The notes beneath the pieces are model-generated. The model ran no database searches, was not told the origin of the DNA, and saw only the letters and a program-made list of their open reading frames with translations. A stretch of DNA of 27,793 nt from Flavitalea sp. (GTDB lineage Bacteria > Bacteroidota > Bacteroidia > Chitinophagales > Chitinophagaceae): contig JBDTVL010000001.1 of the NCBI GenBank assembly GCA_040007215.1, forward strand, positions 1 through 27,793, written 5' to 3'. The first letter of the stretch is position 1. Every line of letters starts with the position of its first letter. Shown one piece after another: positions 22,427 to 25,516 of this stretch. The position numbers and the translations under genes were made by a program.

Positions 22427-23290
22427 TTACAGCGAAACCTGTTCCTGCTTTTCCACGGTAATGACCGGTATATTTGAACCGTAAGAAAGTATCTTCCTGG
22501 TAAGCCTGTTCCATGACCCCGGCATATTAAATTCTTTCAACTGGTTGGCCATGATCAGATCGGCATTAATACGTTTTGAAAATTCCAGCGTGCTTTTTGC
22601 CAGATTTTTTCCTTCCAGTAAAAAACATTGAACCGGAATAGTGGAAATGCTCTGTACTACTTCAAGCGCTTTGTTAACTATATTATTTTCCGCCGTTACA
22701 TTTTTGCGGAGCGATACCAGGTATACAGTCGATTTAAACGACCTGGCGAGCATGGTGGCGAGCTTTATGCGATGAAAAGGTATATTGTTGTTGATGGGCA
22801 AAACGATCTTCTTAAAATGGCTAACAAGCCCCGAGGATCGAACTGCAAGCGTAGGTACATTTGTTTTACGCGCCAGCGCGCTGAGAGAAAGCGATGACAG
22901 TACGCGGTAAATAAGATTGAATTTAGGTAATCCTATAACGACAAGATCTATGTGAAATTGAGTAATGTATTTTGTCAGTTGTGCGCTTTTAAGTCCATGT
23001 AGCAGGCTGATCTCGATACTGCTGCCTTCGCATAGATGAGCCCGGTAGTCGTCCTTTAGCTGTTCAAGCTTTTTACGGGCATTTTCCAGGTCGGAGGTGA
23101 TATCGAAAGCAAGCGCCCGGGAAAGATCCACCGGGATGAATGGCGCCAGTGGTTTAGATACCACATGCACCAGGTGGATATTGCACTGAAAGTTGTTGGC
23201 CAGCTCAATCGCTTTGGCTACCGCCCATTTTGTTTTTGCGGTGAAGTCGACTGGAACCATGATGTTGTAGAATGTTTCTGGCATAACCAT
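22427..23290 (-). CDS. Universal stress protein (tandem Usp domains)
   Basis: NIMVPVDFT...A...IHLVHV and IDLVVIG, then LARKTNVPTLAV; the second domain has KIVLP and ADLIM..IPVITV. Confidence 0.85.
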   Translation of the reverse strand: MVMPETFYNIMVPVDFTAKTKWAVAKAIELANNFQCNIHLVHVVSKPLAPFIPVDLSRALAFDITSDLENARKKLEQLKDDYRAHLCEGSSIEISLLHGLKSAQLTKYITQFHIDLVVIGLPKFNLIYRVLSSLSLSALARKTNVPTLAVRSSGLVSHFKKIVLPINNNIPFHRIKLATMLARSFKSTVYLVSLRKNVTAENNIVNKALEVVQSISTIPVQCFLLEGKNLAKSTLEFSKRINADLIMANQLKEFNMPGSWNRLTRKILSYGSNIPVITVEKQEQVSL

Positions 23291-23318: not shown

Positions 23319-24695
23319 CTATGCTAGACTTAATAAAGGTTTAAAACTTTCTTCTCTGATATTTTTAAACGCTACAGTTTCCAGTATTTCGTCTTTGGTA
23401 CGGAAGGCCACTCCTTTGCCGGCATGCCCCACCATACACCGGTCATCGCGGCTGTCGCCGACCACGATACAGTTTTTCAGTTGCACGCTGTATTTTTCAC
23501 AGGCATGCTGTAGTGCATTTGTTTTGCAGTAAGAATGACCGCAGATGCTTTCGGGCGATCCGAAAAAATAGTAAGGCAGGTTCACTTCACCAGTTGCTTT
23601 TCCGTTAAAGAACTCGAGCTGGTTAGCCAGGGAAAAATCGGCGCCTATCTGTTGTTTGATATAGTTGGTGATGAGTGTATAGCTGTTGCTGATAATGCCC
23701 ACGCGGTAATCTTTTTCTTTCAGTTCCTGGATCACTTCTTTCACGTCCTCAATAAGGCTCATTTCGCTGGCCACATGCAGCAGTTCGTCCATTGTGCGTC
23801 CTTTCAACAAAAGCCCTATACGTTTAGTAAGAATGATGGGATCTTTTTCAGCCGCCCGGAAATCTTCCAGTTTGGGATAGAATCCGAATGCTTTGGCGCA
23901 TTCATCTATAAACCTTCCTTTTAACAGGGTATCGTCCATGTCAAAAATGAGCAGCTTATGGTATATGGCCAGGTTTTCTCTTAATACCTTATTCATTTCC
24001 CGGTTAATGGTTTCGAGAGAATGGATCTCTTCTTCGCTTACCGTATCGGGATGCTGATCATGGGCCTTGGAGATGATCGCGGAGGATACTTCCTTGCTCA
24101 TTTTTCCAAGAGCTTCCCAGGGTTTGCTTTTATTTTCAATATAGCCGATGTTTATTTCGGCTATCCTGGCTTTCATGAGGTACATGTCTATTAGTATACC
24201 GATATCTACGCCGTAGTCATTAAAAAACTTGATTTTGGAAAAGTAGCTTTTTCTGCCGGCGATCATACCGCTCAGGGGCTGGCTGAATTTCGCCAGGCCT
24301 GGATATAATATGTTGAGCAGGGGTTTGGCTACCAGTTCGGTTACGCGGCCTGCATTGCGCGCAAAAGCGCCTTTAACGAAGTCGGCTTCCTGGGCAATCA
24401 GCGGAGCAGCCAGCCGGGAAATCGTTTCTTCAGGGTAAGGGTCTATATCTCCATCAAGGAAAAGAAGTATATCATTTGTGGCATGCCGGATGCCATCTTT
24501 CATGGAAATGCCTTTGCCGCGGATTTTACTGGGGATGACTGTAGCGCCGGCTTTGGCGGCCACTGCGGGGGTGTCATCTTCCGATTGATCGTCTACCACG
24601 ATAACCTGGCTTACCATGGCATTGCGGAAGCAAAACCTGACAACATTTCCAATAGTCAGCGACTCGTTCAGAACTGGGATGATCACGGTAAGCAT
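23319..24695 (-). CDS. Glucosyl-3-phosphoglycerate synthase-like glycosyltransferase fused to a HAD-IB phosphatase
   Basis: GT-A domain with VIIPVLNE, VVDDQSED, DGD, GRVTELVAKPLL, QPLSG and YGVDIGILID (GpgS-like). C-terminal HAD domain with DMDDTL, IISNS, KTNAL and GDSRDD. Confidence 0.82.
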   Translation of the reverse strand: MLTVIIPVLNESLTIGNVVRFCFRNAMVSQVIVVDDQSEDDTPAVAAKAGATVIPSKIRGKGISMKDGIRHATNDILLFLDGDIDPYPEETISRLAAPLIAQEADFVKGAFARNAGRVTELVAKPLLNILYPGLAKFSQPLSGMIAGRKSYFSKIKFFNDYGVDIGILIDMYLMKARIAEINIGYIENKSKPWEALGKMSKEVSSAIISKAHDQHPDTVSEEEIHSLETINREMNKVLRENLAIYHKLLIFDMDDTLLKGRFIDECAKAFGFYPKLEDFRAAEKDPIILTKRIGLLLKGRTMDELLHVASEMSLIEDVKEVIQELKEKDYRVGIISNSYTLITNYIKQQIGADFSLANQLEFFNGKATGEVNLPYYFFGSPESICGHSYCKTNALQHACEKYSVQLKNCIVVGDSRDDRCMVGHAGKGVAFRTKDEILETVAFKNIREESFKPLLSLA

Positions 24696-24792
24696 AACAT
24701 ATTACCAGGTTTTTCCGGGAGAAATTTATAATGTTCAGCCAACCAATGCCCCGCCGAAATTAATCAGGTTCACCTTCAGCATACCCCTTTTG

Positions 24793-24807
24793 GCAAAAGC
24801 CGTGCCT
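24793..24807 (-). promoter_or_regulatory. Sigma54 (-24/-12) type promoter upstream of the GpgS-HAD gene
   Basis: Minus strand AGGCACG-GCTT-TTGC versus consensus TGGCACG-N4-TTGC, with exact GG-N10-GC spacing, about 100 nt before the ATG. Confidence 0.65.
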
Positions 24808-25063
24808 CTGCATAGCGAGTCATAAATTTCCCGGCCTAATTAAAGATTATTTTTCCACAAAGCGCTATTGCGCCAGCATAAAAAGGTACGTCTTTTAAGG
24901 TATAGGATAATTGATTTGCTATTAATTTACTATTAAAAAGCCGGAAATCAAACAGGGGTAGAAAATTTGAAGGGGATAGGACTATTACGGTGAAGAAGAG
25001 GGATGTAAATTTGTCAGCAGGCCTTAGATTAAGCCTTCGGCGCTACAGCTGCTCTATTAAAAC

Positions 25064-25096
25064 AAAAAAAATCCTTTCACTGGGTGAAAGGATTTT
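25064..25096 (-). terminator. Intrinsic terminator after the RRM gene
   Basis: AAAATCCTTTCAC-3 nt-GTGAAAGGATTTT, a 13-bp stem with a long U tract on the minus strand. Confidence 0.88.
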
Positions 25097-25123: not shown

Positions 25124-25516
25124 TTAATAATCCCTGTTGTAGCCGCCGCCGGAGCCGCCTCTGTTGAAGCCGCCTTTTTTGTAACCTCCGCCGCCGCCGC
25201 CGCTATTACCGCCGCCGCCGCCGCCTCCAAAGCTCCTTTTCTTAAATCCGCCGCCGCCGGAGCCGCCATTCTGGGGCTTAGGCTGAGCTTCATTAACGAT
25301 GATCTTACGTCCAAGAACTTCTGAATCGTACAGGCTGCTTAAAGAATTCTGCGCTTCAGTATCGTCAGGCATTTCAACAAAACCGAAGCCCTTGCTGCGG
25401 CCGCTTACTTTGTCCTTAACGATCTTTGCAGATGTTACTGAACCGTACTGTTCGAAAAGAGTTCTCAAATCCTCATCGGTCATTTGCCAGGAGAGGTTTC
25501 CTACATAAATGTTCAT
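25124..25516 (-). CDS. RRM (RNP-1) RNA-binding protein with a glycine-rich tail
   Basis: RNP2 IYVGNL, RNP1 KGFGFVEM, and a C-terminal GGGG/RGG low-complexity tail. Confidence 0.94.
   Translation of the reverse strand: MNIYVGNLSWQMTDEDLRTLFEQYGSVTSAKIVKDKVSGRSKGFGFVEMPDDTEAQNSLSSLYDSEVLGRKIIVNEAQPKPQNGGSGGGGFKKRSFGGGGGGGNSGGGGGGYKKGGFNRGGSGGGYNRDY
25141..25265. repeat. Low-complexity GCC/GGC trinucleotide runs encoding the poly-Gly tail
   Basis: Multiple (GCC)n runs inside the RRM gene. Confidence 0.8.

What the first reader, a model, noticed from the sequence alone, without database searches (positions are those of the whole stretch)
23319..24695. GpgS-like glycosyltransferase fused to a HAD phosphatase: candidate single-polypeptide glucosylglycerate synthase
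Seen in sequence: the N-terminal ~210 aa carry GpgS-type motifs (GRVTELVAKPLL, QPLSG, YGVDIGILID), and the C-terminal ~215 aa are an intact HAD-IB phosphatase (DMDDT, SNS, K, GDSRDD). Established: glucosylglycerate is made in two steps (GpgS then GpgP) and accumulates as a compatible solute under nitrogen limitation or salt stress, and a synthase-phosphatase fusion is known for mannosylglycerate (MgsD of Dehalococcoides). Inference: this is an analogous fusion for glucosylglycerate or a related glycoside in Bacteroidota. The mycobacterial HRNR motif appears as NKSK and YGVE as YGVD, so the donor or acceptor may differ.
Basis: partly seen in the sequence, partly recalled or inferred. Interest (0 to 1): 0.68.

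Follow-up and report, generated by a model that had tools for sequence, protein, structure and literature searches.

The report
Fused sugar-glycerate synthase and phosphatase
One gene of a soil-type Bacteroidota bacterium joins a trimmed-down relative of glucosyl-3-phosphoglycerate synthase to a phosphoserine-phosphatase-like domain, so it most likely makes a protective sugar-glycerate solute in two steps; the fusion is common in nature but has never been tested.

Summary
Window 23319-24695 (minus strand) is one intact 458-aa ORF: a GT-A glycosyltransferase (residues 1-215), a helical linker, and a HAD-IB phosphatase (246-458). All quoted motifs are present.

The GT half is closest to mycobacterial GpgS and Rubrobacter MpgS by sequence, HMM and predicted fold. 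It keeps the DxD, the sugar pocket and the GRVTE motif that binds the acceptor's carboxylate. It is not a canonical GpgS. It scores below the equivalog cut-off, lacks three segments, has Asn at the metal-binding His position, and falls in a separate clade.

The HAD half has a phosphoserine phosphatase fold and all catalytic residues. It lacks the Glu that binds the amino group of serine, and carries a family-specific Cys3His cluster.

The closest stand-alone GTs (Clostridia) sit beside a histidine phosphatase, the enzyme class of mycobacterial GpgP. So the GT pairs with unrelated phosphatases.

Neighbours across phyla are Usp, two-component systems, DUF389 and ion transporters or channels.

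Best reading (about 0.6): a one-polypeptide glycosyl-3-phosphoglycerate synthase/phosphatase that makes glucosylglycerate, or mannosylglycerate, under ionic or osmotic stress. Product, donor and activity are untested.

I found no paper on this fusion. This scan has flagged the same fusion before on other DNA.

The parts
23319..24695 (-). Whole gene: 458-aa GT81-like glycosyltransferase :: HAD-IB phosphatase fusion (stop codon 23319-23321)
   Evidence: ORF list and translation. Domain hits. AlphaFold2 model with mean pLDDT 90.3.
24051..24695 (-). GT-A glycosyltransferase domain, residues 1-215 (short GpgS/MpgS-like form)
   Evidence: NF010496 GpgS 170 bits against a cut-off of 262. PDB GpgS E 1e-27 and Rubrobacter MpgS E 6e-22. 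Foldseek to GpgS E 1.8e-21, rmsd 1.6-2.0 A over about 224 columns. Separate clade from canonical GpgS.
24447..24455 (-). DxD motif D81-G-D83, aligned to D134-S-D136 of M. tuberculosis GpgS (sugar contact and metal ligand)
   Evidence: Alignment. Invariant or nearly so in 58 fusions (D81 56/58, D83 58/58). Coordinates checked. Role of the residues from PMC2581804.
24336..24350 (-). GRVTE motif G116-E120, aligned to G184-E188 of M. tuberculosis GpgS; V186 N-H and T187 bind the carboxylate of 3-phosphoglycerate
   Evidence: PMC2581804 section 14. G116 and R117 58/58, T119 56/58. Also invariant against canonical GpgS.
24132..24134 (-). N188, at the position of the metal-binding His258 of M. tuberculosis GpgS
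   Evidence: Alignment. The column holds N in 43 and H in 15 of 58 fusions, and co-varies with S or G at position 142 of the PLSG/PLGG motif.
23961..24050 (-). Helical linker, residues 216-245; lowest-confidence part of the model
   Evidence: pLDDT 57-74 in blocks 211-250 and pTM 0.52. A relative (G059) is split by a frame change exactly here.
23322..23960 (-). HAD-IB phosphatase domain, residues 246-458 (phosphoserine phosphatase fold)
   Evidence: TIGR00338 116.5 bits against a cut-off of 144. MjPSP 1f5s E 5e-16. Foldseek to 1f5s and 3m1y, target-normalised TM-score 0.84-0.90.
23928..23942 (-). HAD motif I D252-M-D254-D-T256 (nucleophile and general acid/base)
   Evidence: Aligned to D11 and D13 of MjPSP. 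D252 57/58 and D254 53/58. Coordinates checked.
23523..23543 (-). C385-G-H387-S-Y-C390-K391: family-specific Cys/His insert ending in the motif III lysine
   Evidence: Absent from SerB in the alignments. C385, H387 and C390 are 21/21 in stand-alone HAD relatives and 41-54/58 in fusions.
23436..23459 (-). HAD motif IV G413-D414...D418, followed by C420, the fourth member of the Cys3His cluster
   Evidence: D414 53/58, D418 57/58, C420 50/58. C420 is 21/21 in stand-alone relatives.
22427..23290 (-). Tandem universal stress protein (Usp, 287 aa), 28 nt downstream on the same strand; probable operon partner
   Evidence: Pfam Usp E 5.8e-14. No terminator-like site between the two genes. A Usp lies directly downstream in 9 of the 55 named fusion loci (12 within 3 kb) and in 2 further relatives from the genome sample, L003 and L013.
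24696..25096 (-). Upstream intergenic region with the terminator of the preceding RRM-protein gene (25068-25096); the fusion gene therefore has its own promoter region
   Evidence: Terminator-like hairpin of 13 pairs plus a T-run. Sequence read. No Rfam family matched.

Best explanation
The gene encodes a bifunctional enzyme for a two-step glycoside pathway. The N-terminal retaining GT-A domain transfers a hexose from an NDP-sugar to the 2-hydroxyl of D-3-phosphoglycerate; glucose is the more likely hexose given the PLSG motif. This gives glycosyl-3-phosphoglycerate. The C-terminal HAD-IB domain is a phosphoserine phosphatase scaffold. Its substrate pocket no longer has the Glu that grips the amino group of serine. 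It removes the 3-phosphate and releases glucosylglycerate (or mannosylglycerate). O-phosphoserine and glycosyl-3-phosphoglycerate differ only at C2 (NH3+ against O-glycosyl), which explains why a SerB-type HAD was recruited. The gene is probably co-transcribed with a tandem Usp. Judging from conserved neighbours in relatives, it serves ionic, osmotic or nutrient stress adaptation. Shown here: domain identities, conserved catalytic and carboxylate-binding residues, fold, phylogenetic position, gene context. Inferred: donor, acceptor, order of the two steps, product, physiological role.
For: (1) The GT domain is nearest to GpgS and MpgS by HMM, by PDB sequence and by fold.

(2) Residues that PMC2581804 assigns to catalysis and binding are kept. 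These are the DxD; K61 (=K114); the sugar pocket L141, M199 and Y161; D164 (=E232, which is Asp in MGS); and GRVTE, whose V186 and T187 bind the acceptor carboxylate.

(3) The HAD keeps all four motifs in the window's protein. The position of MjPSP Glu20, which binds the amino group of phosphoserine (PMC6321591), is Arg here and is never Glu in 58 homologues.

(4) The closest stand-alone GTs (45-51% identical; Clostridia and Bacilli) lie next to, and in L070 overlap, a His_Phos_1 phosphatase. That is the superfamily of mycobacterial GpgP Rv2419c. A canonical GpgS in the same phylum has a separate HAD gene downstream. The GT therefore pairs with three unrelated phosphatase types, as expected if its product is a phospho-intermediate.

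(5) A split form (GT gene plus HAD gene, then Usp) exists in a same-family genome.

(6) Neighbours within 3 kb among 55 named loci are Usp 12, sensor kinase 9, ClC channel 6, Na/H exchanger 4, DnaK 4, CitMHS 3, MscS 1 and Na/Ca exchanger 1. DUF389 occurs in 7 loci overall.

(7) 14 of 21 complete genomes of the same family have no homologue of either half at E<=1e-10. The HAD is therefore not the housekeeping serine-pathway enzyme.
Against: The GT fails the curated GpgS equivalog cut-off (170 against 262 bits). It lies outside the canonical GpgS clade. It lacks the flexible active-site loop (M. tuberculosis 168-183), the N-terminal extension and the C-terminal region. PLSGE is PLSGM and the metal-binding His is Asn. 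Specificity therefore cannot be transferred safely.

I could not read the papers that describe which residues bind the phosphate of 3-PGA, so phosphate recognition by the GT is untested. The equivalent of PSP Arg56 is ambiguous in the alignment (K291 or R292). The model gives no confident inter-domain geometry (pTM 0.52).

MGH1-like hydrolases occur equally in relatives with and without the fusion, so they give no co-occurrence support. No organism that carries the fusion is reported to accumulate glucosylglycerate in the papers searched.
Confidence: 0.6

Rival explanations
1. Same chemistry class but a different acceptor or product. The GT glycosylates another small phosphorylated hydroxy-acid or polyol (for example 2-phosphoglycerate or glycerol-3-phosphate), and the HAD dephosphorylates that product. 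The result would be a glycoside that is not a 2-O-glycosylglycerate.
For: The protein is a distinct subfamily below the GpgS cut-off and outside the GpgS clade. The loop that closes over the acceptor in GpgS is missing. N260 of GpgS is a variable Ser or Met here. Two co-varying active-site subtypes exist (S142/N188 in 42, G142/H188 in 11), which suggests that specificity differs within the family.
Against: The carboxylate-binding GRVTE motif, both flanking arginines (R113, R117) and the sugar pocket are invariant between this family and canonical GpgS. The phosphatase scaffold is the one built for a 3-phospho-2-substituted propanoate. The partner in Clostridia is of the phosphoglycerate-mutase/GpgP superfamily.
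Confidence: 0.17
2. Reverse order of steps. The SerB-like HAD first hydrolyses 3-phosphoglycerate to D-glycerate. The GT then acts as a single-step glycosylglycerate synthase, as MGS of Rhodothermus does.
For: 3-phosphoglycerate is also isosteric with phosphoserine. The clostridial short GTs, but not the window's own protein, give weak Pfam hits to MGS_GT (27.6 bits), as do other relatives. D164 is Asp as in MGS. The loop thought to contact the acceptor's phosphate is absent.
Against: In every characterised synthase-phosphatase pair or fusion of compatible-solute pathways, the phosphatase acts on the glycosylated product. Examples are GpgS/GpgP, MpgS/MpgP and the fused glucosylglycerol-phosphate enzyme (PMC3240985; PMC10873239 abstract). 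The GT is far closer to the phospho-acceptor enzymes GpgS and MpgS than to MGS. Free hydrolysis of a glycolytic intermediate would be wasteful.
Confidence: 0.08
3. The product is glucosylglycerate but serves as a primer or head group of a larger glycoconjugate (as in mycobacterial MGLP or mannosylglucosylglycerate), not as a free compatible solute.
For: In mycobacteria, glucosylglycerate primes MGLP (PMC3240985). Clostridial relatives sit among GT4 and MraY-like transferases. A canonical GpgS of one Bacteroidota genome has a GT4 neighbour.
Against: In the window and in most Bacteroidota loci there is no further glycosyltransferase nearby. The neighbours are instead Usp, two-component systems, ion transporters and channels.
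Confidence: 0.1
4. The HAD half is simply the cell's phosphoserine phosphatase (SerB) that happens to be fused to an unrelated glycosyltransferase.
For: The best family hit of the C-terminal half is SerB (TIGR00338 E 1.2e-33), and PSP structures match well. Some sources name homologues 'phosphoserine phosphatase SerB'.
Against: It scores below the SerB cut-off (116.5 against 144). Glu20 of PSP is replaced and the cap loop is shorter. The distribution is patchy: 14 of 21 complete same-family genomes have no match at all. A subclade has lost the catalytic aspartates while keeping the GT. The canonical roughly 410-aa SerB of other Bacteroidota is only about 33% identical.
Confidence: 0.03

Closest known systems
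Actinobacterial glucosyl-3-phosphoglycerate synthase GpgS (GT81; M. tuberculosis Rv1208, M. hassiacum; PDB 3E25, 4Y6N, 7P5L)
   Same: GT-A fold (rmsd 1.6-2.0 A), 32-36% identity. Shared DxD, GKG lysine, GRVTE acceptor motif, QPLSG, YGV[ED] and the methionine of the sugar pocket.
   Different: No N-terminal extension (about 37 aa), no flexible loop 168-183 and no C-terminal region. PLSGM in place of PLSGE; Asn in place of the metal-binding His258; Lys in place of Arg259 and Arg261. Below the equivalog cut-off, in a separate clade, and fused to a phosphatase.
Rubrobacter xylanophilus MpgS/GpgS (GT81; PDB 3F1Y, 3O3P)
   Same: Second-best structural and sequence match (E 6e-22; Foldseek E about 1e-17). 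A phospho-acceptor enzyme of the same family that takes both mannose and glucose donors.
   Different: About 30% identity, a stand-alone 387-aa protein. Donor preference cannot be read across.
GpgP phosphatases: MpgP-type HAD (Persephonella, Methanococcoides, Thermus) and histidine-phosphatase type (M. tuberculosis Rv2419c)
   Same: Proposed same reaction: dephosphorylation of glycosyl-3-phosphoglycerate (PMC3240985). A histidine-phosphatase gene lies next to the closest stand-alone GTs.
   Different: The window's phosphatase is a HAD-IB with a helical-bundle cap of SerB type and a Cys3His insert. If confirmed, it would be a third, independently recruited kind of GpgP.
Phosphoserine phosphatase SerB/PSP (M. 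jannaschii 1F5S, H. pylori 3M1Y)
   Same: Fold (target-normalised TM-score 0.84-0.90), and motifs I-IV with D252, D254, S336, K391, D414 and D418.
   Different: Glu20 is replaced by Arg. The cap loop is about 4 residues shorter. There is an insert of 8-10 residues holding C385, H387 and C390, plus C420. It is not housekeeping in distribution.
Bifunctional compatible-solute enzymes: MgsD of Dehalococcoides (MpgS::MpgP) and the fused glucosylglycerol-phosphate synthase/phosphatase of heterotrophic bacteria
   Same: Same logic: a synthase that forms a phosphorylated glycoside joined to the HAD phosphatase that releases the solute (the fused glucosylglycerol enzyme is mentioned in PMC10873239; MgsD from my own knowledge).
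   Different: The domains are not homologous. The window's protein gives no hit to the MPG-synthase family, and its HAD is class IB, not the IIB MpgP type. The MgsD sequence itself was not compared here.

Membership tests
GpgS equivalog (NCBIfam NF010496; GT81 actinobacterial-type GpgS) | Score at or above the curated cut-off (262 bits) | tested here: not met
   170.4 bits. Canonical members from Corynebacterium, Woesearchaeota and Chitinivibrionales score 295-381, while fusion-type and short GTs score 156-196.
GpgS equivalog (NCBIfam NF010496; GT81 actinobacterial-type GpgS) | Placement inside the canonical GpgS clade | tested here: not met
   Canonical GpgS forms a clade with 99% SH-aLRT support. 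The window's GT lies in a separate group of 63 rows (support 89) made of fusions and short stand-alone forms. The tree was a quick search with one distant outgroup, so the root is unsure.
GT81 GpgS/MpgS-type catalytic core | GT-A fold with DxD, GKG lysine, acceptor motif G-R-V-T-E, QPLxG loop and YGV[ED] | tested here: met
   All are present and invariant or nearly so in 58 homologues. The fold match to GpgS has rmsd 1.6-2.0 A.
GT81 GpgS/MpgS-type catalytic core | Metal-binding His (M. tuberculosis H258) and the flexible loop 168-183 | tested here: not met
   H258 is N188 in the window (N 43, H 15 of 58). The loop is deleted in the whole fusion-type clade.
GT81 GpgS/MpgS-type catalytic core | Transfer of glucose or mannose from an NDP-sugar to D-3-phosphoglycerate | not testable with these tools
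   Needs an enzyme assay.
Phosphoserine phosphatase SerB (TIGR00338) | Score at or above the curated cut-off (144.15 bits) | tested here: not met
   116.5 bits. The HAD of the split relative scores 99.7.
Phosphoserine phosphatase SerB (TIGR00338) | Glu20 (MjPSP numbering), which binds the substrate's amino group | tested here: not met
   Aligned residue is R261. The column holds R 35, S 16, D 2 and no E in 58 sequences. Role of Glu20 from PMC6321591.
HAD superfamily, subfamily IB phosphatase | Motifs I-IV (DxDxT, S/T, K, GDxxxD) and a helical-bundle cap inserted after motif I | tested here: met
   TIGR01488 HAD-SF-IB scores 59.3 bits against a cut-off of 45. D252, D254, T256, S336, K391, D414 and D418 are present. 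The model shows four helices between strand 247-251 and strand 330-339.
MgsD-type bifunctional MpgS::MpgP | GT55 MPG-synthase domain plus HAD-IIB MpgP domain | tested here: not met
   Pfam and NCBIfam list no MPG-synthase family for the protein, and the HAD is class IB. It is an analogue in function only.

The most novel reading that the evidence does not exclude
The window's gene belongs to a large, unrecognised 'minimal GT81' radiation. Its members make phosphorylated glycosides and have each recruited a different phosphatase: SerB-derived HAD-IB, histidine phosphatase or MpgP-type HAD. The SerB-derived partner, marked by an invariant Cys3His (probably zinc or redox) site beside the catalytic Lys and Asp, would be a third independent origin of glycosyl-3-phosphoglycerate phosphatase. 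Together with Usp, a two-component system, DUF389 and ion transporters, the fusion would form a previously undescribed ionic-stress module of soil and freshwater Bacteroidota, Planctomycetota and Acidobacteriota. That would give DUF389 its first functional anchor. The product could turn out to be a glycoside not yet described.
Probability: 0.3. Interest if true: 0.7.

Novelty: new variant of a known kind. Interest (0 to 1): 0.55.

Why it matters
Glucosylglycerate and mannosylglycerate are known stress solutes, and glucosylglycerate is the primer of a mycobacterial polysaccharide. Their reported producers are few, and I found no report of glucosylglycerate synthesis in Bacteroidota.

If this fusion makes such a solute, the pathway is far more widespread than recognised. 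It would occur in soil and freshwater Chitinophagaceae and other Bacteroidota, Planctomycetota, Acidobacteriota, some Proteobacteria and even CPR and DPANN genomes. A single 458-aa protein would be enough for biotechnological production.

It would also show a phosphoserine phosphatase scaffold re-tooled for a glycosylated substrate, and would add a third origin for this phosphatase activity.

Current database names for these proteins ('HAD-IB family phosphatase', 'glycosyltransferase', 'phosphoserine phosphatase SerB') are uninformative or misleading.

Tried and rejected
(1) Housekeeping SerB was rejected: the score is below cut-off, Glu20 is lost and the distribution is patchy.

(2) A polyprenol-phosphate GT2 was rejected. 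AglJ, DPM-synthase and ArnC-type hits are far weaker than GpgS, and no membrane segment is apparent in the Pfam hits or the predicted secondary structure.

(3) I tested co-occurrence with an MGH1-like (GG/MG hydrolase family, PF22422) gene in five same-family genomes with the fusion and five without. The family is present in both sets (5/5 and 4/5), and strong full-length hits occur in both. The test is uninformative.

(4) An Rfam scan of the leader and operon found nothing above noise. The sigma-70 promoter scan was no better than shuffles.

(5) Literature searches for glucosylglycerate with Bacteroidetes or Chitinophaga, and for a bifunctional or fused GpgS, found no paper on this protein.

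(6) I tried to read Urresti et al. 2012 (JBC) for the residues that bind the phosphate of 3-PGA. The paper is not held, and a term search found nothing useful.

(8) Model coordinates are not exposed, so I could not measure whether C385, H387, C390 and C420 cluster in space or how the two active sites face each other.

(9) Two rows of the tree (L075, L077) were mis-extracted ORFs with branch length 10 and should be ignored.
Full report
OBSERVATION

Window 23319-24695 holds one uninterrupted ORF on the minus strand: ATG at 24695, stop at 23319-23321, 458 aa.

- Pfam splits the protein into Glycos_transf_2 (3-120) and HAD/Hydrolase (247-421).
- NCBIfam gives GpgS NF010496 at residues 3-227 (E 4.6e-50, 170 bits, cut-off 262).
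- NCBIfam also gives SerB TIGR00338 at 243-456 (E 1.2e-33, 116.5 bits, cut-off 144), and the HAD-IB subfamily model above its cut-off.

The start is right, because homologues begin with the same M-x-[ST]-V-[IV]-I-P. A strong terminator-like hairpin (25068-25096) ends the upstream RRM-protein gene. No terminator separates the fusion gene from the tandem Usp gene 28 nt downstream (22427-23290). The two genes probably form one transcript with its own promoter. No Rfam element lies in the leader.

THE GLYCOSYLTRANSFERASE HALF

Against solved structures, the best sequence matches are these:

| Target | E-value |
|---|---|
| M. hassiacum and M. tuberculosis GpgS | 1e-27 to 5e-26 (residues 2-211) |
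| Rubrobacter MpgS | 6e-22 |
| Dolichol-phosphate-mannose synthase | 3e-5 |
| ArnC | 1e-3 |

An AlphaFold2 model built on 58 homologues has mean pLDDT 90.3. Its N-terminal domain superposes on GpgS entries with Foldseek E 1.8e-21 and rmsd 1.6-2.0 A over about 224 columns. Rubrobacter MpgS follows.

I counted chain indices in the printed alignment and checked them against residue numbers named in PMC2581804. The mapping to M. tuberculosis GpgS is:

| M. tuberculosis GpgS | Window protein | Role or note |
|---|---|---|
| K114 | K61 | GKG lysine |
| D134/D136 | D81/D83 | DxD |
| R167 | R113 | |
| G184-R185-V186-T187-E188 | G116-E120 | V186 N-H and T187 bind the carboxylate of 3-phosphoglycerate |
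| L209-S210-G211 | L141-S142-G143 | |
| E212 | M144 | differs |
| Y229-G-V-E232 | Y161-G-V-D164 | Asp as in MGS |
| H258 | N188 | metal ligand; differs |
| R259 / N260 / R261 | K189 / S190 / K191 | differ |
| M269 | M199 | |

In 58 fusion proteins the catalytic and pocket residues are invariant or nearly so. An alignment with canonical GpgS proteins shows that the fusion-type GT lacks four things:

- the N-terminal extension of about 37 residues;
- an 8-residue insert before GKG;
- the 10-11 residues between R113 and G116, which correspond to the disordered or flexible loop of GpgS (PMC2581804);
- the last 40-60 residues.

Canonical GpgS from Corynebacterium, a Woesearchaeote and a Chitinivibrionales MAG pass the NF010496 cut-off (295-381 bits). 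Fusion-type and short stand-alone GTs do not (156-196 bits).

A maximum-likelihood tree of 98 GT domains places canonical GpgS in one clade (99% SH-aLRT). That clade includes roughly 330-aa stand-alone proteins from other Bacteroidota. The window's domain lies in a different group of 63 rows (support 89), made of fusions, the split form and short stand-alone GTs. The tree came from a quick search with one very distant outgroup, so the root is not reliable. Two rows were mis-extracted.

Conclusion: the domain has a GT81-type catalytic core and the glycerate-carboxylate motif, but it is a distinct, trimmed subfamily and not a GpgS orthologue.

THE PHOSPHATASE HALF

The C-terminal half aligns with M. 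jannaschii PSP (E 5e-16) and other SerB structures. It matches them in fold, with target-normalised TM-score 0.84-0.90. D252/D254 correspond to D11/D13. S336, K391, D414 and D418 complete motifs II-IV.

- The Glu20 position is R261 here. Across 58 fusions it is R 35, S 16, D 2 and never Glu.
- The cap loop around Phe49 is about four residues shorter.
- The Arg56 equivalent is ambiguous: K291 is mostly conserved and R292 is variable.

The subfamily carries an insert before the motif III lysine with C385-x-H387-x2-C390, and a cysteine two residues after D418 (C420). These four residues are invariant in 21 of 21 stand-alone HAD relatives and present in 41-54 of 58 fusions. They disappear together with the catalytic aspartates in a subclade with a degenerate HAD. 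I infer a structural zinc site or a redox-sensitive site next to the active centre. This could not be checked, because model coordinates are not exposed.

IS THE HAD THE CELL'S SerB?

No. In a sample of 400 genomes of the phylum, many families have a roughly 410-aa SerB that is about 33% identical to residues 246-440. In contrast, 14 of 21 complete genomes of the window's own family have no match to either half at E<=1e-10.

Apart from the window's own genome, the full-length fusion occurs in ten sampled genomes from six families. A split form occurs in one more.

DISTRIBUTION

The word-indexed search returned 3225 relatives, the best 120 at 72-83% identity. Where named, they come from Chitinophagaceae (Niastella, Pseudoflavitalea, Paraflavitalea). 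Their database names range from 'HAD-IB family phosphatase' through 'glycosyltransferase' to 'glucosyl-3-phosphoglycerate synthase' and 'phosphoserine phosphatase SerB'.

A scan of one genome per species found the fusion in these groups:

- many Chitinophagaceae genera;
- Ohtaekwangia, Prolixibacteraceae, Rikenellaceae and Saprospiraceae;
- Planctomycetota;
- Acidobacteriota;
- Chitinimonas and Rubrivivax;
- an Actinomycetes MAG;
- CPR and DPANN MAGs.

The exhaustive representative search found 165 clusters at E<=1e-30. They include complete stand-alone versions of each half and other architectures, such as GT plus a sugar-phosphate nucleotidylyltransferase domain and GT plus a pyruvyl-transferase domain.

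EVIDENCE THAT THE TWO ACTIVITIES BELONG TOGETHER

(a) In a same-family genome (G059) the gene is split in the linker into a 229-aa GT and a 249-aa HAD ORF. Both keep their family scores, and a Usp follows.

(b) The closest stand-alone GTs (45-51% identity; Clostridia and Bacilli MAGs) lie beside a histidine-phosphatase-superfamily gene. In one locus that gene overlaps the GT's stop codon, with a GT4 gene next to it. Mycobacterial GpgP (Rv2419c) belongs to this superfamily, whereas other known GpgPs are HAD-like (PMC3240985).

(c) Canonical GpgS genes in other Bacteroidota are followed by a separate 300-aa HAD gene.

The GT thus recurs with three unrelated kinds of phosphatase. This is the expected pattern if its product is a phosphorylated intermediate.

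CONTEXT

In the window the partner is a tandem Usp. Across 55 named fusion loci, genes within 3 kb include the following:

| Neighbour | Loci |
|---|---|
| Usp (directly downstream in 9) | 12 |
| Sensor kinase, usually with a response regulator | 9 |
| ClC chloride channel | 6 |
| Na+/H+ exchanger | 4 |
| DnaK | 4 |
| Uncharacterised 399-aa membrane protein | 4 |
| CitMHS-type transporter | 3 |
| DUF389 | 2 |
| MscS channel | 1 |
| Na/Ca exchanger | 1 |

At least 24 of the 55 loci have one or more of these (my tally, leaving out DnaK and the uncharacterised 399-aa protein), and several contigs are too short to tell.

In the genome sample, DUF389 lies adjacent to the fusion, and in two loci overlaps its start codon, in four lineages. 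It also lies near the split form, beside a Na+/H+ exchanger. This points to ionic or osmotic stress physiology. It is guilt by association, not proof.

MECHANISM PROPOSED

Step 1 (inferred). The GT domain works by the retaining mechanism described for GpgS. It transfers a hexose from an NDP-sugar to O2 of D-3-phosphoglycerate, which is held through its carboxylate by V118 and T119.

Step 2 (inferred). The HAD domain hydrolyses the 3-phosphate through the D252 aspartyl-phosphate. The altered cap (Arg or Ser in place of Glu20, and a shorter loop) makes room for the sugar that replaces the amino group of phosphoserine.

The PLSG motif favours glucose by the argument of PMC2581804. However, the hydrogen-bond network that the paper invokes (E212, Y213) is not conserved, so mannose is not excluded. 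A co-varying subtype (PLGG with His at 188) in Planctomycetota, Acidobacteriota and Proteobacteria may differ in donor.

Inter-domain geometry is unknown (pTM 0.52).

COMPARISON AND NOVELTY

The logic is that of MgsD and of the fused glucosylglycerol-phosphate enzyme, but the domains are not homologous to theirs.

I found no paper on this protein family. The published GpgS phylogeny describes four clusters and no such fusion (PMC3736172).

This scan has flagged the same fusion before on other DNA. One follow-up reached the same reading. Other notes describe Usp-GpgS fusions and a fusion of GpgS with a histidine phosphatase. I treat those notes as leads only. My own results independently show the loss of Glu20, the histidine-phosphatase neighbour and the Usp linkage.

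VERDICT

The gene is a new variant of a known kind of pathway enzyme. It is biochemically untested and moderately interesting.

Noticed in passing
L009:2853-4154, L011:206-1504, L006:3-965, L010:3027-4364, L034:4697-6004, L037:4688-6004, L100:821-2137: A DUF389 membrane protein (function unknown) lies next to the fusion gene in several unrelated lineages. In four loci (L009, L011, L034, L037) its reading frame overlaps the fusion gene's by 4 nt, which suggests translational coupling. This may be a first functional lead for DUF389, for example solute or ion handling under stress.
   Followed up: partly
window 23436-23543 (residues C385, H387, C390, C420): A Cys-x-His-x2-Cys motif immediately before the catalytic Lys, plus a Cys two residues after the motif IV Asp, is invariant in 21/21 stand-alone HAD relatives and absent from SerB. 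It is probably a zinc or redox site. Spatial clustering could not be checked.
   Followed up: partly
L051:1028-2515, L054:1653-3155, L055:6001-7488, L060:395-1894, L069:6001-7434: Several roughly 475-500-aa fusions (a Bacteroidota subclade, L051/L054/L055/L060, plus the Rubrivivax member L069) keep an intact GT. They have lost the second catalytic Asp, the motif IV Asp and the Cys/His cluster of the HAD half, so the HAD is likely a pseudo-phosphatase. In the Bacteroidota subclade a GFO/IDH/MocA oxidoreductase is the downstream neighbour in L056 and L060.
   Followed up: partly
L068:4735-8453 and L070:4708-8321: Clostridial cluster containing an MraY/WecA-type transferase fused to a rubredoxin domain, the short GT81-like enzyme, a histidine phosphatase and a GT4 enzyme. 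It possibly builds a glycerate-containing glycoconjugate.
   Followed up: no
A2 columns for residues 142 and 188 (window 24132-24134 and 24270-24272): Two co-varying active-site subtypes: PLSG with Asn188 (42 sequences, including the window) and PLGG with His188 (11 sequences; Planctomycetota, Acidobacteriota, Proteobacteria). This may reflect a different sugar donor or metal.
   Followed up: partly
L062:3281-5344: An Actinomycetes MAG has a 687-aa version with about 200 extra N-terminal residues that match no Pfam family.
   Followed up: no
G000 contig C39:7566-7972 (L014, L015): The window's own genome has a DUF389 gene elsewhere that is read in two pieces with an in-frame TGA. It may be a frameshift, an assembly error in this MAG, or a broken gene.
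   Followed up: no
L029:7404-8600 (P0271); also L023, L028, L064: A 399-aa polytopic membrane protein with no Pfam hit recurs next to the fusion in four loci. By eye it resembles cation/proton antiporters.
   Followed up: no
P0237, P0166: Other architectures of the same short GT: fused to a sugar-phosphate nucleotidylyltransferase domain (donor synthesis plus transfer in one protein), and fused to a polysaccharide pyruvyl-transferase domain.
   Followed up: no
window 25068-25096 (minus strand): A 13-bp hairpin plus T-run lies directly after the RRM-type RNA-binding protein gene (25124-25516). It is the only terminator-like site in the 3-kb region and separates the rpsF-rpsR-rplI-RRM block from the fusion-Usp pair.
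   Followed up: yes
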